A DNA stretch of 64,000 nucleotides from Collinsella aerofaciens. GTDB lineage: Bacteria > Actinomycetota > Coriobacteriia > Coriobacteriales > Coriobacteriaceae. Location: NCBI GenBank assembly GCA_905213725.1, contig CAJMJM010000001.1:577-64576 (forward strand). Reading direction: 5' to 3'. The position numbers were made by a program, and so were the translations under genes. Each line of letters opens with the position of its first letter. Within the stretch, counting starts at the first letter, position 1. The notes under the pieces were generated by a model that was given only the letters and a program-made list of their open reading frames with translations, did no database searches and was not told the origin of the DNA. This document shows, piece after piece, positions 2,163 through 46,987 of this stretch.

Positions 2163-2174
2163 TTACCCGCTTGT

Positions 2175-3904: not shown

Positions 3905-3913
3905 AGACAGGGA

Positions 3914-31090: not shown

Positions 31091-31230
31091 AACCGACGGG
31101 CCGCCCCGTCCCATCCACCTGCTGCTACCTGCTATCCGCCGATTTCCGTTGCGCTGTTGTATTCCCATGCCATATCCTCTAGACAACTACGCGGCATCAT
31201 CGCCGCCGCGCCTACAAGAGAGGAATGTCC

Positions 31231-33261
31231 ATGACCGCACCTGCCACTAAGCTGCTCCAGCCCATTACGGTTGGCCCCCTTGAGCTCAAGAACCGCATTA
31301 TGTTCCCGCCGCTTACCACCGGCTACGAGGAGCGCGACGGTTCCATTGGCGAGCGCAGCCTGGCTTTTTACGAGCGACTGGCCCGTGGCGGCGTGAGCTA
31401 CATCGTCATCGGCGACGTCGCTCCCGTTATGACCGCAAGCCCCACGCCCAAGCTGGCGACCGCCGCCCAGATCCCCACGTTTAAGGCGCTGGCCGACGCC
31501 GTCCACAAGCACGGTGCCAAGGTCGCGCTGCAGCTGTTCCACCCCGAGTACGACGTGCCCGGTGTCGGCCGCATGGTCATGGGTTCCATGGCTGCCGCCA
31601 AGGCCGCGCAGGAGGCCAAGGCCGCCGGCGACGAGGAGACCTTTGCCGCCAAGATGGCCGAGTCCAACGAGATTCGCAACCAGGCCTACGCCAAGCTGCA
31701 CCACGACATGCAGCACTTTGTGAACGAGGCCAGTGTGGAGCAGCTCACCCAGATCAAGGAGGCCATCGCCGCCTCGGCCGCTCGCGCGCAGCAGGCCGGG
31801 ATCGACGCCATCGAGGTCCACGGCGACCGTCTGGTGGGTTCGCTGTGCTCGGCCATCCTCAACCAGCGCACCGACGAGTACGGCGGTTCGTTCGAGAACC
31901 GCGTTCGCTATGCGCTCGAGGTCGTCGCTGCCATTAAGGAAGCCGCGCCGCAGCTGATGGTGGAGTACAAGCTTCCCGTGATCATGGAGAACCCCGACGG
32001 CACGCCGCGCGGCAAGGGCGGCCTGCAGCCCGACGAGGCCTGCGAGTTTGCCAAGCTGCTCGAGGGCGCGGGCATCGACATGATCCAGGTCGCGCAGGCC
32101 AACCACACCGGCAACATGGGCGACACCATTCCGCCCATGGGCGCCATGCCCTACAACTGGACGCTGCCCGTGGCCGAGCGCGTCAAGGCCCTGGTCTCCG
32201 TGCCGGTGGCAACCGTCGGCCGTGTTGTCTCGGTCGAGGCCGGCGAGAAGATTCTGGAAGACGGCGCGGCCGACATCATCGCCTATGGCCGCTCGCTCAT
32301 GTGCGACCCCGACATTGCGCTGAAGGCCGCCACGGGTGAGCCCATCCGCGAGTGCCTCAACTGCAACAAGGGCTGCGTCGACGCGATTCAAAACCGCAAG
32401 TACATCTCGTGCGTGCTCAATGCCGAGAACGGCGATGAGGCGACCATCGCCATTAAGCCGGGCGAGGGCGACAAGAAGATCGCCGTGGTGGGCGGCGGTA
32501 TTGCCGGCCTGGAGGCCGCGCGCGTGGCGGCCAAGCGCGGTTACGACGTGACCGTCTACGAGGCGAGCGATCATCTGGGCGGCCAGATTGTGCTGGCGGC
32601 CGCGCCTCCGCGCAAGGACGAGATCATGCGCTCGGTCGAGTACTACGAGAAGATTCTGCCCGGCCTGGGCGTGAAGGTTGAGCTCAGCCATGCCGCTACC
32701 GCTGAGGACCTCAACGCCGCCGACGCTGCGATTGTGGCCGTGGGTGCGCACGACGTGGTCATCCCCGTTCCGGGTGCCGATTCGGACAAGGTCGTCTCGA
32801 GCTGGGACGTGCTGGCCGGCAAGGTGGAGCTCCGCGGCCGCGTCGCCGTCATTGGCGGTGGCCTGGTGGGCACCGAGACTGCCGAGTACCTGCTGCAGCA
32901 CGGCTGCGAGGTGGCGATCGTGGAGATGCTCGACAAGATTGCCGCGGGCGAGTCCGAGACCATTCTGCCGTTGATTATGAGCGACTTTGCAGAGCATAAC
33001 GTGGAGCAGCACGTGAAGACCCGCCTGACCGCCATTACCGACGAGGGTGTGGAGGCTGTTCGCACCACCGAGGACGGCGCCGTGGAGCCTGTGATGATTG
33101 CCTGCGATTACGCGGGGAGGGCCGTGGGCGCCAAGGCCAACGCGTTGGATCTGGACGGCGTGACGGTGCCCGTGACCTTCGTGGGCGACTGCTCGGGCGA
33201 GCGCACCGCCGATATCGCGAGCGCCATCCGCACGGCATATCACGCGGCCAACGAGCTGTAG
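31231..33261 (+). CDS. NADH:flavin oxidoreductase, OYE-like TIM barrel + FAD/NAD(P)-binding domain (2,4-dienoyl-CoA/enoate reductase family)
   Basis: About 676 aa; N-terminal OYE motifs (NRIMFPPLTTGYEERDGS, HGAKVALQLFH), C-terminal VAVVGGGIAGLEAA and VIGGGLVGTETA Rossmann motifs; start ATG 31231 (7 nt after GGA) preferred over 31225. Confidence 0.85.
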   Translation: MTAPATKLLQPITVGPLELKNRIMFPPLTTGYEERDGSIGERSLAFYERLARGGVSYIVIGDVAPVMTASPTPKLATAAQIPTFKALADAVHKHGAKVALQLFHPEYDVPGVGRMVMGSMAAAKAAQEAKAAGDEETFAAKMAESNEIRNQAYAKLHHDMQHFVNEASVEQLTQIKEAIAASAARAQQAGIDAIEVHGDRLVGSLCSAILNQRTDEYGGSFENRVRYALEVVAAIKEAAPQLMVEYKLPVIMENPDGTPRGKGGLQPDEACEFAKLLEGAGIDMIQVAQANHTGNMGDTIPPMGAMPYNWTLPVAERVKALVSVPVATVGRVVSVEAGEKILEDGAADIIAYGRSLMCDPDIALKAATGEPIRECLNCNKGCVDAIQNRKYISCVLNAENGDEATIAIKPGEGDKKIAVVGGGIAGLEAARVAAKRGYDVTVYEASDHLGGQIVLAAAPPRKDEIMRSVEYYEKILPGLGVKVELSHAATAEDLNAADAAIVAVGAHDVVIPVPGADSDKVVSSWDVLAGKVELRGRVAVIGGGLVGTETAEYLLQHGCEVAIVEMLDKIAAGESETILPLIMSDFAEHNVEQHVKTRLTAITDEGVEAVRTTEDGAVEPVMIACDYAGRAVGAKANALDLDGVTVPVTFVGDCSGERTADIASAIRTAYHAANEL

Positions 33262-33706: not shown

Positions 33707-34111
33707 GTGGCAGGTATGTCGGAAGCAACTAGGACTCGTACGCATGCGCCCGAGGTTAGGCAGCACGCCGTCGAGATCCTCCAAGAGGGGGTCGGTCACC
33801 GCGCCCTCGCCGCAAAGCTTGGCATTCCCCAGGCCACGGCTCGCCAGTGGGCCCGCGCATATGCCGTGGGCGGTGCCGACGCCGTTCTCAACGCCGGTTC
33901 GCACCATCACACCTATTCGTACGACGTAAAGCTCGCCGTGGTTAAGGACCGTCTGGAAAACGGCTTGACGGTTCGCGATGCCATGATCAAGTACAAGATT
34001 CCCAGCGAGTCTTCGGTCAAGGCTTGGTGCCGCCAGTATCGCGAGAGCGGTGAGTCCGCGCTGGTCGATAAGCCGCGCGGTCGCAAGCCGCGCGTTAAAA
34101 AGGCGGAATAG
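33707..34111 (+). CDS. IS3-family transposase OrfA-like HTH protein (no OrfB; IS remnant)
   Basis: 134 aa, HTH pattern (GVGHRALAAKLGIPQATARQWARAY) typical of IS3/IS150 OrfA; preceded by about 340 bp of strongly AT-rich sequence (33373-33706) unlike the rest of the window. Confidence 0.55.
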   Translation: MAGMSEATRTRTHAPEVRQHAVEILQEGVGHRALAAKLGIPQATARQWARAYAVGGADAVLNAGSHHHTYSYDVKLAVVKDRLENGLTVRDAMIKYKIPSESSVKAWCRQYRESGESALVDKPRGRKPRVKKAE

Positions 34112-34291: not shown

Positions 34292-35155
34292 ATGACGCTA
34301 CTGTATTTCCTTACCCTGTTTCCGCTGGTACCGGCGCTGGGCATGCTGTTCGCGCGCGGCGACCGCGCCCGCGATGCGGTGGGGCTCATAGGTTCCGGCA
34401 TTATTATGGCGGTGACAGTTGTAGTCGCCGTCATGTTTTTTGGCATGGGTCCGCAGAGCTTTGAGGTTGCCTCCGGCACCTCGCATGTGCTCTCGATCAT
34501 CAGCTCCGTCATCGACGTCATCCTGTGCGCCGTAATCCTGTACAACGCGTACAAATATAGGAGCGCGCTCACCACGGTGCTCGGCATAGTCCAGCTGGTG
34601 GGCTCGCTCGCCTTTGCAGCCATGACGCTGCCCGCGGCCGAAGCCGTCACGGCAACGCCGCTCTACCTGGACTACATGAGCGTGATCATGGTGCTCGCCG
34701 TCGGCATCGTCGGCAGCCTAATCTGCGTGTATGCCCTGGGCTACATGAAGGACTTCCAAGCGCACGATGAGCACGAGGCAGCGCTGCGCGGGCAGACCGC
34801 GCCCGATCGACGTCCGCAGTTCCTGGCACTTATGTTCCTGTTCCTCTCGGCCATGTTCGTCATCGTGACGAGCGACAACCTTGAGTGGCTGTTCTGCGGC
34901 TGGGAAATTACCACCGTGTGCTCGTTCCTTATGATTGGCTACACGCGCACGCCCGAGGCCATCAAGAACGCCTTTACCCAGATCATCCTCAACATGCTGG
35001 GCGGTATCGCGTTTTTGGCCGGACTCATGTATCTGCACGTTAACGGCATGCCGCTGACCATCTCGGGCATGATCGAGCTTTCCAGCGCCGGAACCGCGCA
35101 GTCCGCACTGCTGGTGATGCCGGTCATCCTGTTGTCGCTCGCCGCACTCACCTAG
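34292..35155 (+). CDS. echA: Ech hydrogenase membrane subunit EchA (NuoL/MrpA-like antiporter module), N-terminal 287 aa up to TM7, ending at in-frame TAG
   Basis: NuoL-like N-terminus and GWEITTVCSF (TM5 Glu); ORF stops at TAG 35153-35155 exactly where the conserved TKSAQ lysine is expected. Confidence 0.7.
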   Translation: MTLLYFLTLFPLVPALGMLFARGDRARDAVGLIGSGIIMAVTVVVAVMFFGMGPQSFEVASGTSHVLSIISSVIDVILCAVILYNAYKYRSALTTVLGIVQLVGSLAFAAMTLPAAEAVTATPLYLDYMSVIMVLAVGIVGSLICVYALGYMKDFQAHDEHEAALRGQTAPDRRPQFLALMFLFLSAMFVIVTSDNLEWLFCGWEITTVCSFLMIGYTRTPEAIKNAFTQIILNMLGGIAFLAGLMYLHVNGMPLTISGMIELSSAGTAQSALLVMPVILLSLAALT

Positions 35156-35164
35156 GCCGCACAG

Positions 35165-37174
35165 ATGCCGTTCCTCACTTGGCTGTTGGGTGGCAGGGTT
35201 GCCCCCACGCCCACGAGCGCCCTGCTGCACTCGTCAACCATGGTCAAAGCCGGCGTGTTCCTGATGGTCAAGCTGAGCCCGCTCTATGCCATCTATCCCG
35301 TGACCGGCTTTATGGTCACGAGCGTGGGCGCCATCACGTTTTTGCTCGCTGCCCTTATGGCCATCTCGCAGAGCAATGCCAAGCGCGTGCTCGCGTACTC
35401 CACCATTTCCAACTTGGGCCTCATCAGTGCTTGCTTGGGTGTCGGCGCGCCCGAGGCCGTATGGGCGGCCATCTTCCTGATCCTGTTCCACACGGTGGCA
35501 AAGTCGTTGCTGTTCCTGTGCGTGGGCACGGCCGAGCATCATATCGGCAGCCGCAATATCGAGGACATGGACGGTATGTTCAGCCGCATGCCGCACCTGA
35601 CGCGCCTGATGATGCTGGGCATCATGGGCATGTTTGTGGCGCCGTTTGGCATGCTCGTGTCCAAGTGGGGCGCCCTGGTGGCGTTCGCGCAGACCGGCAA
35701 CGTGCTCATGATTATGGTGCTGGCCTTTGGCTCGGCCGCGACGTTTTTCTTCTGGGGCAAGTGGCTTGCCAAGCTTTCGGGCGTCGACCCCACGGCTCAA
35801 AACGTTGAGGTCAATGTCCATAAGACCGAATGGATGGCCCTCAACACCATCGCCGCGCTGCTGATTCTGTGCTGCGTGGCGTTCCCGGTTATCTCGAGCG
35901 GTCTGGTGTCGCCTTACTTGGCCATGGTGTTTGGCCGCGTGCCGTACGTTATTGGCAAGGACGCCATGTACCTGATGGTGGTTATCGTGGCGTTTATCGC
36001 CGTGGTGCTGCTGACTTCATTCCGAGTGAGCAACAAACCGCATGTAAACGTATATCTTTCGGGCGTGGGAACCGACAAATATCGCCATTTCCGCGGCTCG
36101 ATGGGGCACGAGGTGAAGGCCGAAAAGCGCAATTGGTACTCGGAGGACGCCCTTGGCGAGAAGCGTATTGGCCCCGCGGGTAGCGTCGTGTGCTGCAGCA
36201 TTATCTTGTTTGCGCTGCTGTGTTGCGCGTGGATTGGGCCCGAGCGGCTTGCCATGAGCGCGCCCTCGGTGCTGCGCGGCAAGTATTTCGAGGGTTCGGG
36301 CGTCGTGGGCATTTTTATTGGCACCGTGGCGTTTGCCTTGCTGGCGCCTTTGGTTGGTGGCCTGATCGACGGCGTTGACCGCAAACTTTCGGCCCGTATG
36401 CAGGGCCGCGTGGGCCCGCGCCTGCTCCAGCCTTTCTACGACGTTGCCAAGCTGCTGCGCAAAGCCCCTGCCAGCGTAAACACCATGGACGATACCTATA
36501 TGGCGTGCGCGCTCATCTTTACCGTCGTGGGCGGCGGCATCTTTGTGTCGGGCTCTAACACGCTACTGTGCGCTTTTATGGTGACGCTCGCCGCGATCTT
36601 TGTGGTGTTGGCGTCCGCCTCGACGCAAAGCCCGTTTGCCCAGGTTGGCGCCGATCGTGAGTTACTGCAGGTTATGAGTTACGAGCCCGCCGTTTTGCTG
36701 ATGAGCGTGGGCCTGTACCTTGCCACCGACAGCTTTGATTCCATCGCCGTGACGGGGCAGTCGGCCCCCATCATCGTGTACAGCGCGCCCATTTTCCTGG
36801 CGCTGCTCGCGGTGCTTACCATCAAGCTGCGCAAGTCGCCGTTTGACCTTTCGTACTCGCATCACGCGCATCAGGAGATCGTCCAGGGCGTCGCCACCGA
36901 GATGAGCGGCGGCACGCTGGCCAAGATGACCCTTATGCACTGGTGCGAGACCGTGCTGTTTTTGATGTGGGTGGGCATGTTCTTTGTTTGGGACAACCCC
37001 GTGAGCTGGGTTGTAGCCCTGGTCGTGATGGCCGCGACGTATTTTGTCGAGGTCCTGATCGACAACACCTTCGCACGCAGCACCTGGCGCAGCTGCTTTA
37101 GGCTCGGATGGGGCGTGGCGCTGGTGTTTGGCCTGCTCAACCTTATGCCCATCCTCGTTGACGTGTTTATTTAG
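35165..37174 (+). CDS. EchA C-terminal part (from TM7b) fused to EchB (NuoH-like)
   Basis: Begins AAQMPFLTWLLGGRVAPTPTSALLHSSTMVKAG (NuoL/MrpA TM7 motif minus the Lys), same frame as 34292-35155; C-terminal third carries the NuoH/EchB signature GLIDGVDRKLSARMQGRVGPRLLQPFYDVAKLL. Confidence 0.7.
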   Translation: MPFLTWLLGGRVAPTPTSALLHSSTMVKAGVFLMVKLSPLYAIYPVTGFMVTSVGAITFLLAALMAISQSNAKRVLAYSTISNLGLISACLGVGAPEAVWAAIFLILFHTVAKSLLFLCVGTAEHHIGSRNIEDMDGMFSRMPHLTRLMMLGIMGMFVAPFGMLVSKWGALVAFAQTGNVLMIMVLAFGSAATFFFWGKWLAKLSGVDPTAQNVEVNVHKTEWMALNTIAALLILCCVAFPVISSGLVSPYLAMVFGRVPYVIGKDAMYLMVVIVAFIAVVLLTSFRVSNKPHVNVYLSGVGTDKYRHFRGSMGHEVKAEKRNWYSEDALGEKRIGPAGSVVCCSIILFALLCCAWIGPERLAMSAPSVLRGKYFEGSGVVGIFIGTVAFALLAPLVGGLIDGVDRKLSARMQGRVGPRLLQPFYDVAKLLRKAPASVNTMDDTYMACALIFTVVGGGIFVSGSNTLLCAFMVTLAAIFVVLASASTQSPFAQVGADRELLQVMSYEPAVLLMSVGLYLATDSFDSIAVTGQSAPIIVYSAPIFLALLAVLTIKLRKSPFDLSYSHHAHQEIVQGVATEMSGGTLAKMTLMHWCETVLFLMWVGMFFVWDNPVSWVVALVVMAATYFVEVLIDNTFARSTWRSCFRLGWGVALVFGLLNLMPILVDVFI

Positions 37175-37186
37175 GAGGCGGCATCC

Positions 37187-37807
37187 ATGGATCATAAAAT
37201 GTCGCGCTCGCCGTGGGTCATTCATTACGACGGCTCGAGCTGCAACGGATGCGATATCGAGGTGCTGGCCTCGCTCACGCCGCTGTTCGATGCGGAGCGC
37301 TTTGGCGTGGTCAACACCGGCAACCCCAAGCATGCGGACATCTTTTTGGTGACGGGGTCGGTCAATGCCCAGAACCTGCCCGTCGTGCGCCAGATCTACA
37401 GCCAGATGCTCGAGCCCAAGTGCGTGGTGGCGTGCGGCATTTGCGCGTGTTCGGGCGGCGTATTCCGCGATGCCTATAACGTGATCGGCGGCGTGGACCG
37501 CGCGATTCCCGTGGACGTGTATGCGCCCGGGTGCGCCATTCGTCCCGAGACCGTGATCGATGCCATCGTGGAGGCGTGCGGCATCCTTGATCAGAAGGAG
37601 GCCGTGATGCGCGCCGGCGGTGACCCGCTTACCGTGGGCGGCGCTGCTACCTGGGATGGCGGCGTCGAGTTGGGCGAGGACGGGTTCGTGGCTGCAGCTG
37701 GGGCCGGGGCTGACGGTGCCGGTGACGCGCCTGCCGAGAAACCCGCAGCGCCTGCCGCTGGTGACGCACCTGCTGAGACGCCCGTCGCTGCAAAGGAGGC
37801 CGAGTAA
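37187..37807 (+). CDS. echC: Ech hydrogenase small subunit (NuoB-like, [4Fe-4S]) with Ala/Glu/Pro-rich C-terminal tail
   Basis: GSSCNGCDIE...CVVACGICACSGG...YAPGCAIRPE cysteine pattern of NuoB/EchC. Confidence 0.85.
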   Translation: MDHKMSRSPWVIHYDGSSCNGCDIEVLASLTPLFDAERFGVVNTGNPKHADIFLVTGSVNAQNLPVVRQIYSQMLEPKCVVACGICACSGGVFRDAYNVIGGVDRAIPVDVYAPGCAIRPETVIDAIVEACGILDQKEAVMRAGGDPLTVGGAATWDGGVELGEDGFVAAAGAGADGAGDAPAEKPAAPAAGDAPAETPVAAKEAE

Positions 37808-38526
37808 TGCAAAAGGCTATCTATACCACCGTCGGGCTCGACGAGCTCCTGCCGCATGTGCAGGCGCTCAAGGGCGTCGGCGCGCGCTTTGTGCAAATGC
37901 ACGCCGAGCGCTGTGTGGACGACGGATCGTATCGCCTGGTCTATACGTTTATCAACGTCCGTGCTGCTCAGGAGCAGATTGCGCAGGACGGCAGCTATGC
38001 GATCGAGAACCTGGTGGTTGAGGGAATTAATCAGTACCAGGAGATTCCGTCCATCAGCTCGTACTATCCGGCAGTATTCCCGTTTGAAAACGAAGCGCAC
38101 GACCTGTTTGGTTTTGCCATTACCGATATGCAGATTGACTTTAAGGGCTTTTTCTACCAGGTCTCGACTGCCGAGCCCATGAGCGTTATCACGCCCGAGG
38201 TGAAGGCCGCGCGCGAGAAAGCCATGAAGGTCCGTGCCGCTGCCGAGGCCAAGGCGCGCAAGGCCGCGGCCGAGAAGGCTGCTACTGCCACGGCCGCTGC
38301 GGGGGAGGGCACTGCGGGCGCTGGCGATGCTGCGGGCGCTGCCGTCGCTCAGCCCGCTGCGGCTGCCGGCTCCGATGCTCAGCACGATGAAACTGCTGCG
38401 AAGGCCGCGCTCAAGGCTGCCGAGATGGAGGCAAAGCTCGCCGCCATGGATCCCGAGAAAGCGGCCAAGGTCCGCGCGGCGCTTGCCGCCAAGGCCGCCC
38501 GCGACAAGCAGAAAAAGGAGGCGTAA
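37807..38526 (+). CDS. echD: Ech hydrogenase subunit EchD (NuoC-like) with about 110-aa Ala/Lys/Glu-rich tail
   Basis: N-terminal about 130 aa NuoC-like (RFVQMHAER...RLVYTF...FENEAHDLFG); start overlaps echC stop (TAATG). Confidence 0.7.
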   Translation: MQKAIYTTVGLDELLPHVQALKGVGARFVQMHAERCVDDGSYRLVYTFINVRAAQEQIAQDGSYAIENLVVEGINQYQEIPSISSYYPAVFPFENEAHDLFGFAITDMQIDFKGFFYQVSTAEPMSVITPEVKAAREKAMKVRAAAEAKARKAAAEKAATATAAAGEGTAGAGDAAGAAVAQPAAAAGSDAQHDETAAKAALKAAEMEAKLAAMDPEKAAKVRAALAAKAARDKQKKEA

Positions 38527-38531
38527 GGTCC

Positions 38532-39620
38532 ATGGCACATCGCTCCGTTATTCCGTTTGGCCCGCAGCACCCGGTGCTGCCCGAGCCGCTTCATCTGGAC
38601 CTGGTAATCGAGGACGACCGCGTCATCGAGGCAATTCCGCAGATCGGCTTTGTGCACCGCGGGCTCGAGAAGCTCACCGAGAAGCGCGACATGCACCAGT
38701 TTGGCTACATCGCCGAGCGCATCTGTGGCATCTGCGCCGTGGGCCACAGCTACGGTTATGCCAGCGCCTGCGAGCGCATGCTCGACATCGAGGTGCCCGG
38801 CCGCGTGCAGTATATCCGCACCATTTTGCACGAGCTTTCGCGTATTCATTCGCACCTGTTGTGGCTGGGTCTGCTCGCCGACGCCTTTGGCTTCGAGGCA
38901 CTGTTCTATCGGTCGTGGACCCTGCGCGAGCAGATTCTCAAGATCTTCGAGAGCACGTGCGGTGGCCGCGTGATTCTGTCGATTAACGAGATCGGCGGCC
39001 TTAAGCACGATATCGAGGACTCCGAGCTGGCCGGAATTGTCCAGACGCTCGATGCCATGCGTCCCGACTACGAGGCCCTGGTGCATACGTTTTTGGACGA
39101 TGACAGCTGCGGCGAGCGCTTGCATGGCGTGGGTGTGATCAGCAAGAAAGATGCGCTGGATCTGTCGATGGTCGGCCCGTTTGGGCGCGCCTCGGGCGTG
39201 GATTACGACGTGCGCATGTTTGGCGACGGTGCCTATGCGGATCTGGTTGCGTTTGAGCCCATCGTTGCTACCGATGGCGATTGCTATGCCCGCTGCCAGG
39301 TGCGCTGTGCCGAGGTCACGCAGGCCATGGACATCATTAAGGAGCTTGTGGGCAAGATTCCGCACGACGGGATAGGCGGGCGCACCAAGCTTACACCGGC
39401 CGACGGCGCACGCGGCGAGGTTGTGATTGAGCAGCCGCGCGGCGAGGCGTATTACTATGTGCGCGGTAACGGCACCAAGAACCTGGACCGCTTCCGCGTG
39501 CGCACGCCGACGTCGCAGAACCTGGCGGGTCTGACACATGCGCTGCAGGGCGTGCTCCTTGCCAACGTGCCCATGATTATCCTGACCATCGACCCCTGCA
39601 TTAGCTGCACGGAAAGGTAG
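38532..39620 (+). CDS. echE: group-4 [NiFe] hydrogenase large subunit (EchE/NuoD-like)
   Basis: 362 aa; N-terminal Ni-binding RICGICAVGH and C-terminal DPCISCTER motifs; size typical of Ech-type (group 4) large subunits. Confidence 0.9.
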   Translation: MAHRSVIPFGPQHPVLPEPLHLDLVIEDDRVIEAIPQIGFVHRGLEKLTEKRDMHQFGYIAERICGICAVGHSYGYASACERMLDIEVPGRVQYIRTILHELSRIHSHLLWLGLLADAFGFEALFYRSWTLREQILKIFESTCGGRVILSINEIGGLKHDIEDSELAGIVQTLDAMRPDYEALVHTFLDDDSCGERLHGVGVISKKDALDLSMVGPFGRASGVDYDVRMFGDGAYADLVAFEPIVATDGDCYARCQVRCAEVTQAMDIIKELVGKIPHDGIGGRTKLTPADGARGEVVIEQPRGEAYYYVRGNGTKNLDRFRVRTPTSQNLAGLTHALQGVLLANVPMIILTIDPCISCTER

Positions 39621-39627
39621 GCGCGGC

Positions 39628-39969
39628 ATGAGTTTACTGACATTTGCCAAGACGGCCTTAGGTTCTATGGTCAAGCAGCCGGTCACGGTGCGCTATCCGC
39701 AGGAGAAGCTGACGGCACCCGAGCGCTTGCGCGGGCATATCGTCAACGACATGGACGTGTGCATCTGCTGCGGCATGTGCGCGCGCCGCTGCCCGGCGGG
39801 CGCGCTCGCGGTCGATCGCAAGGGCGGTACCTGGTCGATCGACCCGTACGCTTGCGTGGTGTGCGGTGAGTGCATCGAGAGCTGCCCCAAGCACTGCCTG
39901 ACTATGGACACCGCCCGCACCCCAGTCGCAGCGGACAAGACTCCCACAGTAGAAACCAAACCGGAATAG
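39628..39969 (+). CDS. echF: Ech hydrogenase 2x[4Fe-4S] ferredoxin subunit (EchF/NuoI-like)
   Basis: CICCGMCARRCP and CVVCGECIESCP cluster motifs. Confidence 0.8.
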   Translation: MSLLTFAKTALGSMVKQPVTVRYPQEKLTAPERLRGHIVNDMDVCICCGMCARRCPAGALAVDRKGGTWSIDPYACVVCGECIESCPKHCLTMDTARTPVAADKTPTVETKPE

Positions 39970-40687: not shown

Positions 40688-42796
40688 ATGGGTAAGTACA
40701 CGAGGGGTCTCTTGGCGGTGATACTGGCCGTAGTGCTGGTGTTGCCAGCCGCAGCATTCGCCATGCTGCCCGAGGCCAACGCCAGGTCCAGCACAGGAAT
40801 GGACGGACCGATAATGACCGGAAAGGTCGCCGACCCCGACACCAGCGGTCGCTGGGAAATCTGGGCGGCAGGCCACGGTGGCAATAAGGTAACGACCCAA
40901 AACGTCGGTCGAATCTGGACCGACAAGACGGTCAAGGCAACCGAGGAAAACGAAGAGTCGGACTTTTTGACCACGCTTTCGGCGATGTCCTCGACGTCTA
41001 ATTCAACCGTGACGGTCACCACGCCGCTTGACATCGTGATGGTGCTGGATGCCTCTGGCTCGATGGATGATCCTATGGGTGGCGGAGATTCCACCAAGCG
41101 TATCGATGCACTGAAGAGCGCTGCGAACAGCTTTATCAATACCATTGCCAAGCAAAACGAGGGTATCGAGGGTGTCGATAGGCAGCACAGGGTTGCCATT
41201 GTTAAGTTTGCGGGTGATAAGACCAATAAGGTCGGCAATGACCAGTACAAGAAAGGGCAATTTTGGTACAACAACTCGCAGGTGATGAAGGGTTTGACCG
41301 ATTGCTCTGGCGGCAACGTGAAAGTTCTTGAGGATACAGTTGCTGGAATCAAACCAAGCGGTGCCACGCGTGCCGACTATGGTCTGGAACTGGCCGGGGA
41401 TATCACTTTTGGCCGCGCAGATGCCAAGAAGATCGTTGTGTTCTTTACCGACGGCAAGCCAACGAGCTTCAGCGAGTTTGATTCTGACGTCGCCAAGGGT
41501 GCCGTGACGGCTGCCAAGAAGATGAAGGATGGCAAAGCCACCGTTTATACCATCGGCATCTTTAGTGGAGCGGACCCCGCTGACGATCCCTCGAAAGAGG
41601 GGACAAGCGACGTCAACAAGTTTATGCACGCCGTGTCGAGTAATTATCCCGATGCCACGTCGTATGCGAGCGCCAAGCTTGGCACACGCGCGGAAAACTC
41701 CGACTACTACAAGTCGGCGACCAACGCCGAAGAGCTCAAGAAGGTCTTCGACGACATCTCACAGGCCATCACATCGGAGGCGCCTTATCCGACCGAAATC
41801 CATAAGGGCTACGACGAGACCAAGTCCGGCTACATTACGTTTACCGACGAGCTGGGCGACTTTATGCAGGTCGACGGATTTACCGAAGTCGTCATCAACG
41901 GCACGCCGTTTACCGAGGCGAGCAAGACGTTCAACAAAGAAACCAATACCGACACATACGAGTTCACCGGCAAGGCAAAAGACCTGCTCATCACCGTGCA
42001 GCGTGCTGGCGCTGACAATCCCCAGAAGGGCGATATCGTAACGGTTAACATTCCTGCGTCGTTGATTCCGCTGAGCCACTTTAAGACCGTAGACGGCAAG
42101 CTTTCGGTCGACAACGCTAAGCCCATTCAGGTGAAGTATGCCTCGAGCGTGAAGAGCGCCGCACTTGACAACCTGTTTACGCCCGAGAAGGTCACGGGGC
42201 TCAAGGACTACATCGAGCATAATACGACTGTCGTTGACGGCACCAAGACCGTGAGCTTCTACGCGAACAAGTGGAGCGGTGGTGCGTTGGGTGATACGGT
42301 TGCGACCTTTGAGCCGGCCGACACCAACCGCTACTACTACTTCCAGAAGCAGACTCCCATTTACACGGACAAGGACTGCACACAGCCTGCAAAGAATTCG
42401 CTGACAGATACTGGCACCTATTACTACAAGGATGAGTTTGAGGAGCAGGGCGAGAACGGCGAGGCCAAGCCCGCCACTGCCGTCATCGAGTTTATCGGCG
42501 GCGACGCTGCCAAGTTTGACGGCGCTATTGTTGCCGACAAGGACGGCAACCTTTCGTTTAGCGTGGGAACCGCGCGTCTGGCCTTTATCGACGAGCTCCA
42601 CACCACCAAGGGCAGCGTGGGCGGCAACAGCACTGGTACCGCGACCGACGTTCTCAACCCCAAATGGAACAACGTGTCCGCCAAGGCGGCTGCGACGCAT
42701 GTCAATTCCTATCTGGGCAACAACGGCAAGATCAGCTTTGCGTATGACATGACGCCGGCAATGGTGAACACCAAGGCCAGCTTTGGTCTAACCTAG
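40688..42796 (+). CDS. surface adhesin, N-terminal part: signal peptide, VWA domain with MIDAS motif, Ig-like region; ends at in-frame TAG
   Basis: Signal peptide MGKYTRGLLAVILAVVLVLPAAAFA; DASGSMDD MIDAS; ORF ends FGLT-TAG exactly at the isopeptide-Lys position of a SpaA-type domain; no cell-wall anchor in this ORF. Confidence 0.75.
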   Translation: MGKYTRGLLAVILAVVLVLPAAAFAMLPEANARSSTGMDGPIMTGKVADPDTSGRWEIWAAGHGGNKVTTQNVGRIWTDKTVKATEENEESDFLTTLSAMSSTSNSTVTVTTPLDIVMVLDASGSMDDPMGGGDSTKRIDALKSAANSFINTIAKQNEGIEGVDRQHRVAIVKFAGDKTNKVGNDQYKKGQFWYNNSQVMKGLTDCSGGNVKVLEDTVAGIKPSGATRADYGLELAGDITFGRADAKKIVVFFTDGKPTSFSEFDSDVAKGAVTAAKKMKDGKATVYTIGIFSGADPADDPSKEGTSDVNKFMHAVSSNYPDATSYASAKLGTRAENSDYYKSATNAEELKKVFDDISQAITSEAPYPTEIHKGYDETKSGYITFTDELGDFMQVDGFTEVVINGTPFTEASKTFNKETNTDTYEFTGKAKDLLITVQRAGADNPQKGDIVTVNIPASLIPLSHFKTVDGKLSVDNAKPIQVKYASSVKSAALDNLFTPEKVTGLKDYIEHNTTVVDGTKTVSFYANKWSGGALGDTVATFEPADTNRYYYFQKQTPIYTDKDCTQPAKNSLTDTGTYYYKDEFEEQGENGEAKPATAVIEFIGGDAAKFDGAIVADKDGNLSFSVGTARLAFIDELHTTKGSVGGNSTGTATDVLNPKWNNVSAKAAATHVNSYLGNNGKISFAYDMTPAMVNTKASFGLT

Positions 42797-45700
42797 GTGC
42801 TCGAGGGGCGCGACTGGACGAATGCTGACGCGTTTGAGTTTGGCCTGACATCCGAGAGCGGCGCCCCGATGCCTGCGGCTAGGACTGCGACCGTGCGCAA
42901 GGCTGACCTGGACCAGGGCAAGGCTGCCATCGACTTCGGCACGATCGAATACACCGAACCTGGCACGTACGTCTACAAGGTCAGTGAAAAGCATGCCGGG
43001 ACCACGAATGACGGCATCGCCTACAGCAAAAACGTCGCGGAGAACACCGTGACGGTAACGCCCGACAAGGAGGGCGAGCTCAGCGCCGCTGTGAAGGTGG
43101 CCTGGAGTGAAGCCGAAGTGACCGAGTTCAAGAACGTCTACGCTGCGGATCCTGTTGAGTCCAGCGTTACCGACCAGATTACCGTGGCCAAGTCCCTGAC
43201 CGGGCGCGACTTGACGGAAGGCGAGTTCAGTTTTGAGCTGCGCGAGGTTAAGGGCGAGGACTCTGAGCTTATCGAGACCGTTGCGAACGCCGCCGACGGC
43301 AAGGTGACGTTCAGCACCATCAAGTACACCGAGATCGGCCAGCACACCTACATGCTGCGTGAGGTCAAGGGCGACGCCGGTGGCATTACCTATGACGATA
43401 CGATCTACACTGTCGTGACGACCATTGCCGATAACGGCAAGGGCCAGCTGGCCGCTACGCACGAGCTGAAGGGCGCCAAGGACGTCAAGAGCATCGAGTT
43501 CAAGAACGCCTACACCACAAATGCTGCCGAGGCATCGCTTACGGGCATCAAGAACCTGCAGGTCGCCGACGGCTTGACCCCGGCTGACATTGCCGGCAAG
43601 TTCACCTTTACCGTGACCGGTGAAGAGGGCGCACCCATGCCCGCGAACGCGAGTGTGACCAATGATGCCAAGGGCAAGGTCGACTTTGGCAAGATTACCT
43701 TTACGCTCGACGACCTTAACAAGGCTCTGGGCGAGAAGCCCGAGAAGCGCGAGCACACCTTTACCTACACCGTGACCGAGTCCGGCGAGGTCGCTGGCGT
43801 GACCAACGACGCCAAGCTGTCGCGCGAGGTTTCCTTCACCGTGACTGATGACGGCAAGGGCAATCTGAGCGTATCCCACAAGCCGGACGGCGATGTGGCA
43901 TTTACGTTCACCAATACCTATAACGTGACGCCTGTCGAGACGAGCGTCACCGACCAGATTACCGCGACCAAGGTCCTGACCGGGCGCGAGCTTGCTGCCG
44001 GCGAGTTCTCCTTCGAGCTCGTCGAGGGCGAGGGCGAGGACGCCAAGGTTATCGCCACCGGCACTAACGCCGCCGATGGCAAGATCACGATGAGCGCCGT
44101 GAAGTACACCAAGGCCGGAACGCACGCCTACACGCTGCGCGAGGTCAAGGGCGGAACCATCAGCAAGGGCGTCACCTACAGCGATGCCGAGTACACCATC
44201 GAGACCACCATCACGGACAACGGCGACGGTACGCTCAGCGCCACGCATGTTCTGAAGGACGACGTCAAGGCTGCAACTTTCGAGAACGCTTACAGCGTGA
44301 CCCCGCTCGACGCAGAGTTCGACTTTGGCCTGGGCAAGGCCATCGACGGTCGCGACTGGACGGACTCCGACAAGTTCAGCTTTACCATTACCGCTTCCGA
44401 GGGCACCCCGCTGCCCGATCCCGCAACCGTAACCGTGAGTAAGAAGGACGCGAAGGACGGCATCGCCGCCATCAAGTTCGGCAAGATCCACTACACGGCT
44501 GCCGGAACCTACAAGTATGAGATCCGCGAGAACGCGGGTAATACGGTCGGCATGACGTATGACTCCCACGTCGCGACCGCCGAAGTAACCGTGACCGAGG
44601 ACGGCGATGGCAACCTGACCGCCAACGTCACCAAGAAGGAAAACGGACGCTTTACCAACACGTACCGCACTGAGCTTAACTACACCGCGGCCGGCGGTCT
44701 GTGGCTCAGCAAGTATCTGGACGGCCGCCCCATGACCGAGGGCCAGTTCACCTTTACCGTGACACCTGCTGACGACGCTTCGGCTCGCGCGCTCGGTCTG
44801 CTGCCCGGGGCCAACAGCTTCAAGTCTCCCGAAGCGGCAGAGGCAACGGTCGGACTGATCGACATTCTGGCTGGTCATGAGGTTAAATTTACGCAGGCTG
44901 ACGCCGGCAAGACCTTCAAGTACACCGTGGCCGAAAAGAACGACGGCCAGCCCGGTTACACCTACGATGACGCCGTACGCACGGTGACGATCGCCATCGC
45001 CGACGACACCGCCGGTACGCTCACTGCTACGACGACCGTTTCCGGTGGTCCCGAGGGCACGCATGAGACGGTCCACAAGAGTGGCGAGAACAAGGTCGAG
45101 AAGGCCCTGGTGCCGTTCCACAACAGTTACAGCGCTACGACCAACACGCCTGGCGGCACCGCCGCTCAGGTCGTTGCCACCAAGACTCTGACCGGCCGCC
45201 CGATGGCCGACGGCGAGTTCTGGTTCGGCATCGCCTATCAGGGTGAGCTTGTGGCATACGAAAACCTCAAGCCCAATATCGGCGGGCACGTGAGCTTTGA
45301 TACGCTGCACTACGACACTAAGATGCTTGCTAATCTTGAGGCTGCTGGGCTTGCCCATCGTACCGACAAGGACGGTAAGCTTGCCTGGACCATTAACTAC
45401 ACGGCCTACGAAGATTTATTCGGGCTGCCGAATGGCGTTTCCGCTACAACGTGGAGCTTTGGCTTTAAGGTTATCGTCGTCGACAACGGTGACGGTACCC
45501 TGACGGCGACGGTCGACTACGGCGGCGTCGAGCCCTTGTTCGAGAACGTCTACGGCGCCGACGCCGTGGATGCCGCGCTCACCGGTACTAAGAAGCTCCA
45601 GGTTGCCGAGGGCCTGACCCCGGCCGACATCACGGGTAAGTTCACCTTTACCGTGACCGCCGACGAGGCAGGTGCCCCGATGCCCGAGCGCACGACCGTA

Positions 45701-46987
45701 ACCAACGACGCAGCCGGTAACGTGGACTTTGGCAAGATCCACTTTACGCTCGAGGACCTCAACCGCGCTCTGGGCGTGACGGACGATGCGACCGATAAGG
45801 CCGAGGCGGACGAAGCTGACGAGGCCGAGGCCGACGAGGCAGAGGCTGAAGAGGCCGACCCCGCCGCTGACGCCAATGTCGACGAGTCCGAGCCTGCGGC
45901 CCCCACCGCTCCGCGCTCGCACACCTTTGCCTATACGGTGACCGAGACCGGCAGCGCCCCTGGCGTGACCAACGATGCCAACGCCACGCGCAAGGTTTCC
46001 TATACCGTGACTGACGACGGCGCCGGACATCTGAGCGTCGTGCGCAACGGCGACGACGGTGCGGCCTTCACATTCATCAACACCTACAGCGTAACGCCCA
46101 CCGACTCTGTCGTGACCGATCAGGTCAAGACGGTCAAGCGTCTGACCGGACGCGACCTTGCAGCCGGCGAGTTCACGTTTGATCTGCTCGAGGACGGCGT
46201 GGTTGTCGCTAGCGGCACCAACGACGCCAACGGCACTGTGACACTGAGCCCGATCCGCTACGAGGCGCCCGGCACGCACACGTACACGCTGCGCGAGGCT
46301 TGCCCCAATGCGCTCGGCCTGTACAAGGGCGTCACCTATGCCGGTACGACCTACACCGTCGTGGCCACCGTCTCTGACAACGGCGATGGCACACTGGCCG
46401 TGACGCACAAGCTCGAGGGAACCACCGAGTCGGCTGGTTTTACCAACAAGTATCACGCCATGCCCACCCAAGTCTCCATCGGCGCCATCAAGGTGCTCGA
46501 GGGACGCGAGCTCAAGAAGGACGAGTTCAGCTTTAAGCTCGTTGGCGAGGGCATCGAGTCCACCGTCACCAACGATGCCGACGGTAAGATCAGCTTCGAC
46601 AAGTTTGAGTACGACGAGCCCGGTACGCACGTCTACACCATCAGCGAAGTCAAGGGCGACGAGGCCGGTATGACCTACGACAAGTCCGTCTTTACCGCGA
46701 CCGTCAACGTGGTCGATGACGGCGAGGGCAACCTCAAGGCGAACGTCGCCTTTACCAAGGGCGACAGGAGCGTCGAGGGTATCGTGTTCAACAACACGTA
46801 CAAGAAGCCCGAGACTCCTACGCCGACACCCGATCCCGGCACGCCCAAGACCGTGACGAACATCGTCAAGACGGTCAAGGGTTTCCTGCCCACCACGGGC
46901 GACCAGCAGGCTGCCGCTCTGCTTATGGCATTTGTCATCGCCATGGCCGGCGTCGGAGCCCTGGTCTGGGGTATCCGTAAGCGCTAG
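42797..46987 (+). CDS. surface adhesin, C-terminal part: about 9 SpaA/Spy0128-type isopeptide (CnaB-like) domains, acidic linker, LPXTG anchor
   Basis: Same frame as 40688-42796; repeated (A/V/I)xK(V/S)L(T/E)GR(D/E)L...EFSF(E/K)L...NxxDGK(V/I)xF..IxYxxxGTHxYxxxE domains; LPTTG at 46886-46900 followed by hydrophobic helix and RKR; no signal peptide of its own. Confidence 0.8.
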   Translation: MLEGRDWTNADAFEFGLTSESGAPMPAARTATVRKADLDQGKAAIDFGTIEYTEPGTYVYKVSEKHAGTTNDGIAYSKNVAENTVTVTPDKEGELSAAVKVAWSEAEVTEFKNVYAADPVESSVTDQITVAKSLTGRDLTEGEFSFELREVKGEDSELIETVANAADGKVTFSTIKYTEIGQHTYMLREVKGDAGGITYDDTIYTVVTTIADNGKGQLAATHELKGAKDVKSIEFKNAYTTNAAEASLTGIKNLQVADGLTPADIAGKFTFTVTGEEGAPMPANASVTNDAKGKVDFGKITFTLDDLNKALGEKPEKREHTFTYTVTESGEVAGVTNDAKLSREVSFTVTDDGKGNLSVSHKPDGDVAFTFTNTYNVTPVETSVTDQITATKVLTGRELAAGEFSFELVEGEGEDAKVIATGTNAADGKITMSAVKYTKAGTHAYTLREVKGGTISKGVTYSDAEYTIETTITDNGDGTLSATHVLKDDVKAATFENAYSVTPLDAEFDFGLGKAIDGRDWTDSDKFSFTITASEGTPLPDPATVTVSKKDAKDGIAAIKFGKIHYTAAGTYKYEIRENAGNTVGMTYDSHVATAEVTVTEDGDGNLTANVTKKENGRFTNTYRTELNYTAAGGLWLSKYLDGRPMTEGQFTFTVTPADDASARALGLLPGANSFKSPEAAEATVGLIDILAGHEVKFTQADAGKTFKYTVAEKNDGQPGYTYDDAVRTVTIAIADDTAGTLTATTTVSGGPEGTHETVHKSGENKVEKALVPFHNSYSATTNTPGGTAAQVVATKTLTGRPMADGEFWFGIAYQGELVAYENLKPNIGGHVSFDTLHYDTKMLANLEAAGLAHRTDKDGKLAWTINYTAYEDLFGLPNGVSATTWSFGFKVIVVDNGDGTLTATVDYGGVEPLFENVYGADAVDAALTGTKKLQVAEGLTPADITGKFTFTVTADEAGAPMPERTTVTNDAAGNVDFGKIHFTLEDLNRALGVTDDATDKAEADEADEAEADEAEAEEADPAADANVDESEPAAPTAPRSHTFAYTVTETGSAPGVTNDANATRKVSYTVTDDGAGHLSVVRNGDDGAAFTFINTYSVTPTDSVVTDQVKTVKRLTGRDLAAGEFTFDLLEDGVVVASGTNDANGTVTLSPIRYEAPGTHTYTLREACPNALGLYKGVTYAGTTYTVVATVSDNGDGTLAVTHKLEGTTESAGFTNKYHAMPTQVSIGAIKVLEGRELKKDEFSFKLVGEGIESTVTNDADGKISFDKFEYDEPGTHVYTISEVKGDEAGMTYDKSVFTATVNVVDDGEGNLKANVAFTKGDRSVEGIVFNNTYKKPETPTPTPDPGTPKTVTNIVKTVKGFLPTTGDQQAAALLMAFVIAMAGVGALVWGIRKR

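What the first reader, a model, noticed from the sequence alone, without database searches (positions are those of the whole stretch)
34292..39969. Compact Ech-type group-4 [NiFe] hydrogenase operon with unusual membrane-arm architecture: EchA split at the TM7 lysine and its C-terminal part fused to EchB
Gene order and motifs (NuoL-like, NuoH-like, NuoB-like, NuoC-like, large subunit with RICGIC...DPCISC, 2x[4Fe-4S]) match echABCDEF. The NuoL-like subunit is encoded as 34292-35155 plus 35165-37174. The break falls at the conserved discontinuous helix TM7, and an ATG lies 3 codons after the TAG, so termination-reinitiation could make two polypeptides. The downstream part continues without a stop into a full NuoH/EchB-like domain (GLIDGVDRKLSARMQGRVGPRLLQPFYDVAKLL). 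EchA-EchB fusion is not the canonical arrangement. The canonical LHTW histidine is Leu here. EchC and EchD carry long Ala/Lys/Glu/Pro-rich tails. No hyp maturation genes are adjacent. The operon sits between an IS remnant and a repeat locus, consistent with an accessory acquisition.
Basis: partly seen in the sequence, partly recalled or inferred. Interest (0 to 1): 0.6.

Follow-up and report, generated by a model that had tools for sequence, protein, structure and literature searches.

The report
Collinsella Ech hydrogenase; split is spurious
This is the ordinary membrane-bound Ech-type nickel-iron hydrogenase operon of the gut bacterium Collinsella aerofaciens, in which the two membrane subunits are normally one fused protein; the stop codon that seems to split it exists only in this record and is most likely a sequence error.

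Summary
An echABCDEF-like operon lies at 34292-39969. The NuoL-like gene is cut by an in-frame TAG at 35153-35155, and its downstream part runs without a stop into a NuoH-like domain.

The two halves of the claim fare differently. The EchA-EchB fusion is real and typical of the lineage. A single gene of about 950-960 codons is found in all 80 Collinsella genomes retrieved, in Slackia, and in a Kiritimatiellales genome.

The split is private to this record. All relatives examined have Lys (AAG/AAA) at that codon: 80 genomes, 120 metagenome contigs and more than 110 protein clusters.

A 99.9 % identical strain (L007) has the intact gene. It differs from the window at 21 sites in 21 kb. At all 21 the window carries the odd base. 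Nineteen are transversions, 18 change the protein, and most sit in patches of 66 bp or less. One patch holds K288*, H295L, A301G and M302R. Similar patches put premature stops into the adhesin gene (42794) and a kinase-like gene (9901).

TAG is the commonest stop codon in the window, so recoding is not plausible. The synteny is conserved, so this is not an accessory acquisition.

Verdict: an ordinary, already annotated operon. The split is most likely a sequence artefact, otherwise a very recent inactivating mutation. Interest is low.

The parts
33707..34111 (+). Small HTH protein (134 aa here, called as 131 aa in relatives), always directly upstream of the operon. Possibly its regulator (inference); not an IS remnant in the sense of a recent insertion.
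   Evidence: Pfam HTH_28/HTH_23/HTH_Tnp_1 in the gene tables of L001-L015. NCBIfam gives only weak matches to transposase N-termini, far below cut-off.
34292..37174 (+). echAB: a single 960-codon gene for a fused NuoL-like (EchA) and NuoH-like (EchB) membrane protein, interrupted in this record by one in-frame TAG.
   Evidence: Translation. Pfam. Full-length 950-960-aa homologues. Zero internal stops in 80/80 Collinsella genomes.
34292..36226 (+). EchA-like (NuoL/MrpA-class antiporter-like) module, codons 1-~645.
   Evidence: Unfused EchA homologues of 630-660 aa cover query residues 1-643. PDB matches to NuoL/Nqo12/MrpA.
35153..35155 (+). In-frame TAG at codon 288, the codon that aligns with Lys216 of Thermus Nqo12. 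It reads AAG or AAA in every relative.
35153..35196 (+). 44-bp patch of four transversions private to this record: A>T (K288*), A>T (H295L), C>G (A301G), T>G (M302R).
   Evidence: K288, A301 and M302 are invariant in 32 diverse homologues; H295 is at least 90 % conserved.
36227..36307 (+). Fusion linker (codons ~646-672) between the last helix of the EchA module and TM1 of the EchB module. It replaces the stop codon, ribosome-binding site and start codon seen in unfused lineages.
   Evidence: Comparison with the unfused loci L014 and L015. Low pLDDT at 648-670 in the model.
36308..37174 (+). EchB-like (NuoH/MbhM/HycD-class) module, codons ~673-960.
   Evidence: Pfam NADHdh 2e-38. PDB MbhM 6cfw_M and HycD 7z0s_D. 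Unfused EchB of about 295-300 aa covers query 674-952.
37187..37807 (+). echC: NuoB-like small subunit with a variable Ala/Pro/Gly/Glu-rich C-terminal tail.
   Evidence: Pfam Oxidored_q6. NCBIfam NuoB subfamily 135.8 bits against a cut-off of 116. Length 184-211 aa in nearly all of the 80 Collinsella genomes retrieved (one call of 269 aa).
37807..38526 (+). echD: NuoC-like subunit with a long Ala/Lys/Glu-rich C-terminal tail.
   Evidence: Pfam Complex1_30kDa 26.6 bits against a cut-off of 22.5. Tail present, total length 228-245 aa, in nearly all of the 80 Collinsella genomes retrieved (single calls of 130 and 261 aa).
38532..39620 (+). echE: [NiFe] large subunit of 362 aa, with RICGIC...H and DPCISCTER motifs. 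It ends at the motif, so there is no C-terminal extension.
   Evidence: Pfam. Residue-by-residue alignment to MbhL and HycE. The identical protein occurs on 246 contigs and carries the names 'ech hydrogenase subunit E' and 'nickel-dependent hydrogenase large subunit [Collinsella aerofaciens]'.
39628..39969 (+). echF: NuoI-like 2x[4Fe-4S] subunit. 113 aa from this ATG; gene callers often start it 13 codons later, giving 100 aa.
   Evidence: Pfam Fer4 families. NCBIfam NuoI-like matches below cut-off. Gene tables.

Best explanation
The locus is the chromosomal, species-typical Ech-type (energy-converting, group-4) [NiFe]-hydrogenase operon of Collinsella aerofaciens.

Its membrane arm is normally one 960-residue polypeptide. 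An EchA (NuoL-like, antiporter-type) module is joined by a linker of about 25 residues to an EchB (NuoH-like) module. EchC, EchD, EchE and EchF form the cytoplasmic electron-input and catalytic module.

By homology (inferred, not shown here), reduced ferredoxin from fermentation is oxidised and protons are reduced to H2 at the NiFe site. The reaction drives ion translocation through the fused membrane protein, using the Glu(TM5)-Lys(TM7)-His(TM8) chain that the intact relatives keep.

The 'split' is not part of the design. In this one record the Lys288 codon reads TAG, inside a 44-bp patch of four transversions. That patch is one of several such patches scattered over the window. It is most likely a base-calling or assembly error in a low-quality stretch. 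If it is real, it is a very recent inactivating mutation of one strain.
For: Identity of the operon:
- Pfam domains.
- NiFe Cys motifs align with MbhL and HycE.
- Gene order and source names 'ech hydrogenase subunit E/A'.

Fusion conserved:
- More than 100 clusters of 945-965 aa, named as Collinsella, Coriobacteriaceae or Slackia where a name exists. The cluster at 90 % identity that holds the window's 669-aa ORF has 33,584 members.
- 80/80 Collinsella genomes have a 960-codon ORF with no internal stop.
- A Kiritimatiellales homologue is also fused.

Split private:
- Lys at the site in every listed homologue in which the motif was found, 115 of 120.
- AAG/AAA in 80/80 genomes.
- AAG + CAC in 120/120 metagenome contigs, searched with a pattern that allowed either allele.
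- The 287-aa and 669-aa ORFs are each on record from a single contig.
- Against 12 conspecific alleles the window has exactly four private residues, all in codons 288-302.

Error-like signature:
- L007 is 99.90 % identical over 21,089 bp, with no gaps and 21 mismatches.
- At all 21 the window base is absent from every other aligned locus.
- Transitions:transversions are 2:19, against 785:251 for natural polymorphism in the same gene (Fisher p = 4e-10).
- 3 synonymous, 16 missense and 2 nonsense, against a natural synonymous:non-synonymous ratio of 867:135.
- 13 of 20 neighbour distances are 70 bp or less; no simulation out of 100,000 reached this.
- Two more premature stops lie in similar patches: the adhesin at 42794 and the Cytidylate_kin2-like gene at 9901. 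Both genes are intact in relatives.
- EchE is identical to a protein seen on 246 contigs, so the operon is not decayed.
Against: - I cannot see the reads, so a real but very recent cluster of mutations cannot be excluded from sequence alone.
- The intact reference L007 is itself a low-coverage assembly (about 8x by its name).
- About 100 other truncated or frameshifted N-terminal fragments of this gene exist in public Collinsella assemblies. Occasional true loss of function in this species is therefore conceivable.
- The physiological role and the direction of the enzyme in Collinsella are inferred from homology only.
- Placement in subgroup 4e was not tested phylogenetically.
Confidence: 0.85

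Rival explanations
1. The TAG is a real, recent loss-of-function mutation. This strain carries a pseudogenised echAB and so has no functional Ech, following a burst of clustered, unselected mutations such as error-prone repair or a mutator episode in culture.
For: - The changes are derived and hit invariant residues, as expected for unselected mutations.
- Other truncated echAB fragments occur in public Collinsella assemblies.
- The rest of the operon is intact, consistent with a very recent event.
Against: - The spectrum is 19 transversions to 2 transitions, packed into patches of 66 bp or less, with no isolated transition in 21 kb. This is unlike natural polymorphism in the same gene (785:251).
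- Three unrelated genes in 64 kb each carry a premature stop inside such a patch. That would mean an implausible load of simultaneous knock-outs.
Confidence: 0.11
2. One reading: a functional split. Translation terminates at the TAG and re-initiates at the ATG three codons later. This would give a 287-aa N-terminal piece and a 669-aa piece made of the EchA C-terminal part plus EchB, which assemble into a working membrane arm.
For: - An ATG lies three codons after the TAG, in frame.
- The break falls in the loop of the discontinuous TM7, a place where a chain break might be tolerated sterically.
Against: - No relative has this arrangement: 0 of 80 genomes, 0 of 120 metagenome contigs, and none of the listed homologues.
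- The lysine aligned with Nqo12 Lys216 would be missing. Three further strongly conserved residues are changed in the same 15 codons: A301 and M302 are invariant, H295 is at least 90 % conserved.
- No Shine-Dalgarno-like sequence precedes the ATG (sequence).
- The same kind of stop disrupts two unrelated genes in the window.
Confidence: 0.02
3. The TAG is decoded rather than read as a stop, through pyrrolysine, a suppressor tRNA or programmed read-through. The full-length fused protein would then still be made.
For: The TAG replaces a lysine codon. The second in-frame TAG, in the adhesin, also replaces AAG, in the same ACC-TAG-G context.
Against: - TAG is the commonest stop codon in the window, ending 34 of 51 predicted genes.
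- The third premature stop is TAA.
- Conspecific strains have AAG.
- No pyl-type gene appeared among the roughly 50 window genes scanned.
- The neighbouring missense changes are not explained by recoding.
Confidence: 0.01

Closest known systems
Ech hydrogenase of Methanosarcina barkeri and Thermoanaerobacter kivui (EchABCDEF; group 4e energy-converting [NiFe]-hydrogenase)
   Same: - Same subunit set and gene order: a NuoL-like and a NuoH-like membrane subunit, then NuoB-, NuoC-, NuoD- and NuoI-like subunits.
- Short large subunit of 362 aa that ends at the DPCxSCxxR motif.
- No Mrp-type extra subunits, formate dehydrogenase or CO dehydrogenase genes attached.
- JGI names the homologues 'ech hydrogenase subunit A/E'.
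- T. kivui Ech1A and Ech1B are described as separate genes for membrane proteins in PMC4320612.
   Different: - EchA and EchB are one polypeptide here and in most Coriobacteriia; they are separate in the canonical enzymes.
- EchC and EchD carry long low-complexity tails.
- Subgroup placement was not tested by phylogeny.
- No biochemical data exist for the Collinsella enzyme.
Pyrococcus furiosus membrane-bound hydrogenase MBH (PDB 6CFW)
   Same: - It gives the best solved-structure match for the large subunit: MbhL, E = 6e-65, with all four Ni-Fe cysteines aligned.
- The NuoH-like module matches MbhM and the antiporter-like module matches MbhH.
   Different: MBH has 14 subunits, including an Mrp-type sodium module. 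Its MbhH and MbhM are separate chains. The present operon has five genes.
Escherichia coli formate hydrogenlyase FHL-1 (PDB 7Z0S; group 4a)
   Same: HycE, HycD and HycC match EchE, the EchB module and the EchA module. FHL-1 also has a compact membrane arm with one antiporter-like and one NuoH-like subunit.
   Different: No formate dehydrogenase or HycB-type polyferredoxin genes are present here. HycE has a fused NuoC-like N-terminal domain and a C-terminal extension. HycC and HycD are separate chains.
Respiratory complex I subunits NuoL/Nqo12 and NuoH/Nqo8
   Same: The fold and channel residues of the intact relatives match. E205, K288 and H313 align with Nqo12 E132, K216 and H241. The best Foldseek matches are NuoL chains, with target-normalised TM-scores of about 0.65-0.70.
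   Different: In complex I, NuoL and NuoH lie at opposite ends of the membrane arm and are never fused (from memory of the complex I structures). There is no long lateral helix here. The electron acceptor is H+ rather than quinone.

Membership tests
Ech-type / group-4 membrane-bound [NiFe]-hydrogenase | Large subunit with an N-terminal RxCGxCxxxH motif and a C-terminal DPCxSCxxR motif, both aligning with the Ni-Fe ligands of group-4 enzymes | tested here: met
   ERICGICAVGHS aligns with MbhL ERMCGICSFSH. DPCISCTER aligns with DPCLSCTDR (MbhL) and DPCYSCTDR (HycE). Pfam Complex1_49kDa + NiFeSe_Hases.
Ech-type / group-4 membrane-bound [NiFe]-hydrogenase | NuoB-like small subunit, NuoC-like subunit and NuoI-like 2x[4Fe-4S] subunit | tested here: met
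   Pfam Oxidored_q6 97.7 bits, Complex1_30kDa 26.6 bits (cut-off 22.5), and Fer4 families. The two CxxCxxCxxxCP motifs are visible in the translation of 39628-39969. NCBIfam NuoB subfamily is above its cut-off.
Ech-type / group-4 membrane-bound [NiFe]-hydrogenase | One NuoL-like and one NuoH-like integral membrane subunit, encoded as two genes (echA, echB) | tested here: inconclusive
   Both modules are present but as one gene, in this lineage generally. In this record alone a stop also interrupts the gene. The domain content is met; the 'two separate genes' part is not.
Ech-type / group-4 membrane-bound [NiFe]-hydrogenase | Compact six-subunit organisation without Mrp-type, formate dehydrogenase or CODH partner genes | tested here: met
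   The neighbours are a bilirubin-reductase-like flavoenzyme, an HTH gene, an adhesin and a two-component system, in the window and in 13 conspecific loci.
Ech-type / group-4 membrane-bound [NiFe]-hydrogenase | Phylogenetic placement of the large subunit in subgroup 4e (HydDB classification) | not testable with these tools
   Indirect only: source names 'ech hydrogenase subunit E/A'. No NCBIfam Ech-specific model reached its cut-off.
Ech-type / group-4 membrane-bound [NiFe]-hydrogenase | Ferredoxin-dependent H2 evolution or uptake coupled to ion translocation | not testable with these tools
   This needs biochemistry. PMC12578642 describes gut group 4e enzymes as needing further characterisation.
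Complex-I-type antiporter-like subunit (NuoL/M/N, MrpA/D) | Conserved charged chain Glu(TM5) - Lys(TM7) - His/Lys(TM8) with a discontinuous TM7 | tested here: not met
   The intact relatives meet it: E205, K288 and H313 align with Nqo12 E132, K216 and H241, and TM7 is broken at 288/295 in the model. The copy in this record does not, because Lys288 is a stop codon.
Programmed split gene or stop-codon recoding | The same interruption conserved in relatives, and the stop codon rare or reassigned in the genome | tested here: not met
   0/80 genomes and 0/120 metagenome contigs carry the TAG. TAG ends 34 of 51 predicted genes in the window.

The most novel reading that the evidence does not exclude
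The single-polypeptide EchA-EchB membrane arm is real. It is conserved in Collinsella and Slackia and is also present in a Kiritimatiellales genome. It may be an architectural variant of Ech hydrogenases that has not yet been described.

A covalent link between the antiporter-like and the NuoH-like module would fix their 1:1 stoichiometry and their interface. Some Collinsella lineages carry the same genes unfused, which would allow a natural comparison.
Probability: 0.5. Interest if true: 0.3.

Novelty: already known. Interest (0 to 1): 0.15.

Why it matters
It matters mainly as a caution. An in-frame stop at a famous catalytic lysine looks like an exciting split-gene architecture. Here it is one of several patches of private transversions in a single record.

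Group 4e hydrogenases are moderately abundant and transcribed in the human gut, and are still uncharacterised (PMC12578642). The Collinsella enzyme is a reasonable model for them.

Its naturally fused EchAB subunit could simplify expression and structural work. The conserved position next to a bilirubin-reductase-like gene may be worth a look. Neither point depends on the split.

Tried and rejected
1. Pyrrolysine or read-through at the TAG. Rejected: TAG is the main stop codon in the window, and a third premature stop is TAA.
2. DGR-like targeted mutagenesis of the TM7 motif. Rejected: the changes are not adenine-specific (A>T, A>T, C>G, T>G), and similar patches occur in unrelated genes.
3. 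Relaxed selection after pseudogenisation. Rejected: outside the 15-codon patch, every residue of the 960 is shared with at least one of 12 conspecific alleles.
4. Accessory island between an IS and a repeat. Rejected: synteny is conserved.
5. Looking up the source record through the 287-aa and 669-aa ORFs with the look-up of encoding contigs. Both returned nothing on record, so the coverage of the source assembly stays unknown.
6. Literature searches for Ech in Collinsella or Coriobacteriia and for EchA-EchB fusions. No paper describing the fusion was found.
7. NCBIfam. No Ech-specific model reached its cut-off.
8. Foldseek of the model against the PDB. It returned only single-chain NuoL/MrpA matches and cannot test the relative placement of the two modules.
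Full report
**1. Observation**

The ORFs are exactly as described.
- 34292-35155: 287 codons, ending in TAG at 35153-35155.
- Three codons follow (GCC GCA CAG), then an in-frame ATG at 35165 opens a 669-codon ORF that runs to 37174.
- Four further ORFs follow, ending at 39969.

Pfam gives these assignments.
- Proton_antipo_N on the first ORF.
- Proton_antipo_M on the second ORF. The match starts only at profile position 99, so the N-terminal third of the domain is missing. NADHdh (NuoH family) lies on the same ORF.
- Oxidored_q6 (NuoB), Complex1_30kDa (NuoC), Complex1_49kDa + NiFeSe_Hases, and a 2x[4Fe-4S] ferredoxin on the other four.

The large subunit aligns end to end with MbhL of the Pyrococcus membrane-bound hydrogenase (6cfw_L, E = 6e-65) and with HycE of E. 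coli formate hydrogenlyase (7z0s_E). Both CxxC motifs align cysteine to cysteine. The operon identification is therefore sound.

**2. Organism and context**

The EchE protein is identical to one found on 246 contigs. Its sources name it 'nickel-dependent hydrogenase large subunit [Collinsella aerofaciens]' and 'ech hydrogenase subunit E'.

Thirteen conspecific loci show one gene order: a flavoenzyme, a 131-aa HTH gene, a 960-aa membrane protein, EchC, EchD, EchE, EchF, a VWA/FctA adhesin, and a two-component system.
- The operon is a syntenic part of the species' chromosome, not an accessory insertion.
- The 'IS remnant' is a conserved small HTH gene. It is also present upstream of the operon in the unfused lineages.
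- The 'repeat locus' is a large surface adhesin gene.
- No hyp or nickel-transporter gene was found among the roughly 50 predicted genes of the window.

**3. The fusion is real and typical of the lineage**

I searched with the read-through protein, putting Lys at the stop.
- More than 100 clusters of 945-965 aa carry all three Pfam domains. Where a source name exists it is Collinsella, Coriobacteriaceae or Slackia.
- The cluster at 90 % identity that holds the window's 669-aa ORF has 33,584 members.
- The scan of species-representative genomes returned its best 80 loci, nearly all labelled Collinsella. All 80 have a 960-codon ORF with no internal stop.

In a library clustered at 50 % identity:
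- only four or five representatives are fused;
- one of them is a Kiritimatiellales MAG that JGI calls 'ech hydrogenase subunit A';
- the next-best hits are ordinary unfused EchA proteins of 630-660 aa covering residues 1-643, and EchB proteins of about 295-300 aa covering 674-952.

This fixes the module boundaries. It also shows the fusion is a clade-restricted derivative of the canonical two-gene state.

A minority Collinsella lineage has separate genes: a stop, a ribosome-binding site and an ATG sit where the fused form has a linker of about 25 residues (L014, L015).

An AlphaFold2 model of the intact relative P0001, built with a 32-sequence alignment, has mean pLDDT 78.4 and pTM 0.85. It predicts one compact all-helical membrane protein with a low-confidence linker at 648-670. 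Its best structural matches are NuoL and MrpA chains.

**4. The split is private to this record**
- The TAG codon aligns with Lys216 of Thermus Nqo12. E205 and H313 align with Nqo12 E132 and H241. From memory of the complex I literature, these three are the TM5 glutamate, TM7 lysine and TM8 histidine.
- The model breaks TM7 exactly there, with helices 275-288 and 295-302.
- Lys is present at this position in every one of the 120 listed homologues in which the motif was found, which is 115 of them.
- The codon is AAG or AAA in 80/80 genomes.
- A degenerate DNA pattern that accepted either A or T at both variable sites found 120 metagenome contigs. All carry AAG and CAC.
- The 287-aa and 669-aa ORFs are each on record from a single contig.
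- Against 12 conspecific full-length alleles the window has exactly four private residues among 960, all within 15 codons: K288*, H295L, A301G and M302R.
- K288, A301 and M302 are invariant in 32 homologues that go down to 52 % identity. H295 is at least 90 % conserved.
- The His is not universal in the superfamily. It aligns with Met223 of Nqo12.

**5. What the private changes look like**

Locus L007, from another assembly, is 99.90 % identical to the window over 21,089 bp. There are no gaps and 21 mismatches. It has the intact 960-aa gene and an intact 2,099-aa adhesin gene.
- At all 21 sites L007 has the base found in every other aligned Collinsella locus, and the window has a base found in none.
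- Nineteen of the 21 are transversions. Three are synonymous, 16 missense and 2 nonsense.
- Most lie in tight patches:

| Window position | Changes | Gene |
|---|---|---|
| 33083-33147 | 8 | flavoenzyme |
| 35153-35196 | 4 | echAB |
| 42794-42808 | 2 | adhesin |
| 43008-43044 | 3 | adhesin |
| scattered | 4 isolated A>C | flavoenzyme, adhesin |

Natural polymorphism in the same gene between strains looks quite different: 785 transitions to 251 transversions, and 867 synonymous to 135 non-synonymous codon differences. The difference in spectrum gives Fisher p = 4e-10. None of 100,000 random placements reproduced the clustering.

The second nonsense change, at 42794, is again AAG>TAG. It splits the adhesin gene into 702 and 1,396 codons.

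Outside the stretch covered by L007, a further patch of four transversions (9901-9966) puts a TAA into a Cytidylate_kin2-like gene. That gene is a single 207-213-aa ORF in 10/10 conspecific loci.

Taken together there is:
- no isolated transition in 21 kb;
- a strong excess of transversions;
- patches shorter than a sequencing read;
- three unrelated genes knocked out;
- an operon that is otherwise pristine.

This is what poor read ends in a thinly covered assembly would produce. It is not what evolution produces. I cannot see the reads, so a very recent real burst of mutations remains a minority possibility.

**6. Recoding is excluded**

TAG terminates 34 of 51 predicted genes in the window. 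One of the three premature stops is TAA. Conspecific strains encode Lys.

**7. Mechanism of the real thing**

This is inferred from homology to Ech, MBH and FHL. Reduced ferredoxin would deliver electrons through the EchF and EchC iron-sulfur clusters to the NiFe site of EchE, where protons are reduced to H2. Conformational and electrostatic coupling at the interface with the EchB module, and the charged chain of the EchA module, would move ions across the membrane. The reaction could also run in reverse.

Shown here: the domains, the metal-binding motifs, the channel residues in intact relatives, and the conservation of the fusion. Not shown: activity, direction and ion specificity.

**8. The tails**

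The Ala/Pro/Gly/Glu-rich tail of EchC and the Ala/Lys/Glu-rich tail of EchD are genuine and species-wide. Their length varies, giving totals of 184-211 aa for EchC and 228-245 aa for EchD in nearly all of the 80 Collinsella genomes retrieved, and their ends are conserved. Their function is unknown.

**9. Comparison and novelty**

By subunit content and order the operon is an Ech-type, group-4 (probably 4e) hydrogenase. Subgroup placement could not be tested here.

Gut group 4e genes are reported at about 0.06 copies per genome and described as needing characterisation (PMC12578642).

The fused EchAB gene is present and annotated in thousands of public assemblies. None of the literature searches turned up a paper describing the fusion. 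It is a modest variant of a known kind, one already visible in the databases. The headline feature, the split at the TM7 lysine, is not a real architectural feature.

Noticed in passing
window 31225-33261 (+): The gene two positions upstream of the ech operon scores as 'bilirubin reductase, long form' (NCBIfam NF045599.1, 1026.6 bits against a cut-off of 750). The order BilR-like gene, HTH gene, ech operon is kept in 12 of the 13 conspecific loci; in the thirteenth, L001, a very large gene lies upstream of the HTH gene instead. A 2026 preprint reports BilR and BilV in about 88 % of Collinsella genomes but does not mention the hydrogenase. A redox link between the two is pure speculation.
   Followed up: partly
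window 40688-46987 (+), stop at 42794-42796: The VWA/FctA LPXTG adhesin gene is split into 702 and 1,396 codons by an in-frame TAG (AAG>TAG, same ACC-TAG-G context as in echAB). It is one 2,099-aa gene in the 99.9 % identical locus L007 and 1,945-2,478 aa in other strains.
   Followed up: yes
window 9611-10279 (+), stop at 9899-9901: A Cytidylate_kin2-like gene is interrupted by an in-frame TAA (TAC>TAA) inside a patch of four private transversions (9901, 9926, 9961, 9966). It is a single 207-213-aa gene in 10/10 conspecific loci.
   Followed up: yes
window 223-225, 23115-23170, 24373-24382, 33083-33147: Further small patches of transversions private to this record. The patch at 33083-33147 puts seven amino-acid changes and one silent change into the C-terminal part of the BilR-like gene. 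This suggests a general quality problem in the record rather than anything specific to the hydrogenase.
   Followed up: partly
L014 6001-8025; L015 6001-8202: A minority Collinsella lineage (75-82 % identical in EchA) has echA (654-658 aa) and echB as separate genes. A stop, a ribosome-binding site and a start codon sit where the fused form has its linker. Fusion and fission have therefore both occurred within the genus.
   Followed up: partly
protein P0166: A fused 945-aa EchAB homologue (43 % identity) comes from a Kiritimatiellales MAG. The fusion is therefore not confined to Coriobacteriia, through either independent origin or gene transfer.
   Followed up: no
window 37600-37807 and 38200-38526: The low-complexity C-terminal tails of EchC and EchD are present in nearly all of the 80 Collinsella genomes retrieved. 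Their length varies between strains and their ends are conserved (...AAKEAE; ...AAKAARDKQKKEA). Function unknown.
   Followed up: partly
window 2163-3913 (gene 2438-3904, +): A low-GC stretch (0.51 against about 0.62 for the window) carries a Schlafen AlbA_2 / HATPase_c_4 gene between purN and a PTS EIIA gene. Those two genes are adjacent in most conspecific loci, so this looks like a strain-variable insertion.
   Followed up: no
protein cluster 1 (P0122-P0135): About 100 other truncated or frameshifted N-terminal fragments of echAB exist in public Collinsella assemblies, against 33,584 members in the cluster built around the full-length protein. Whether these are assembly errors or occasional real gene loss was not resolved.
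   Followed up: no
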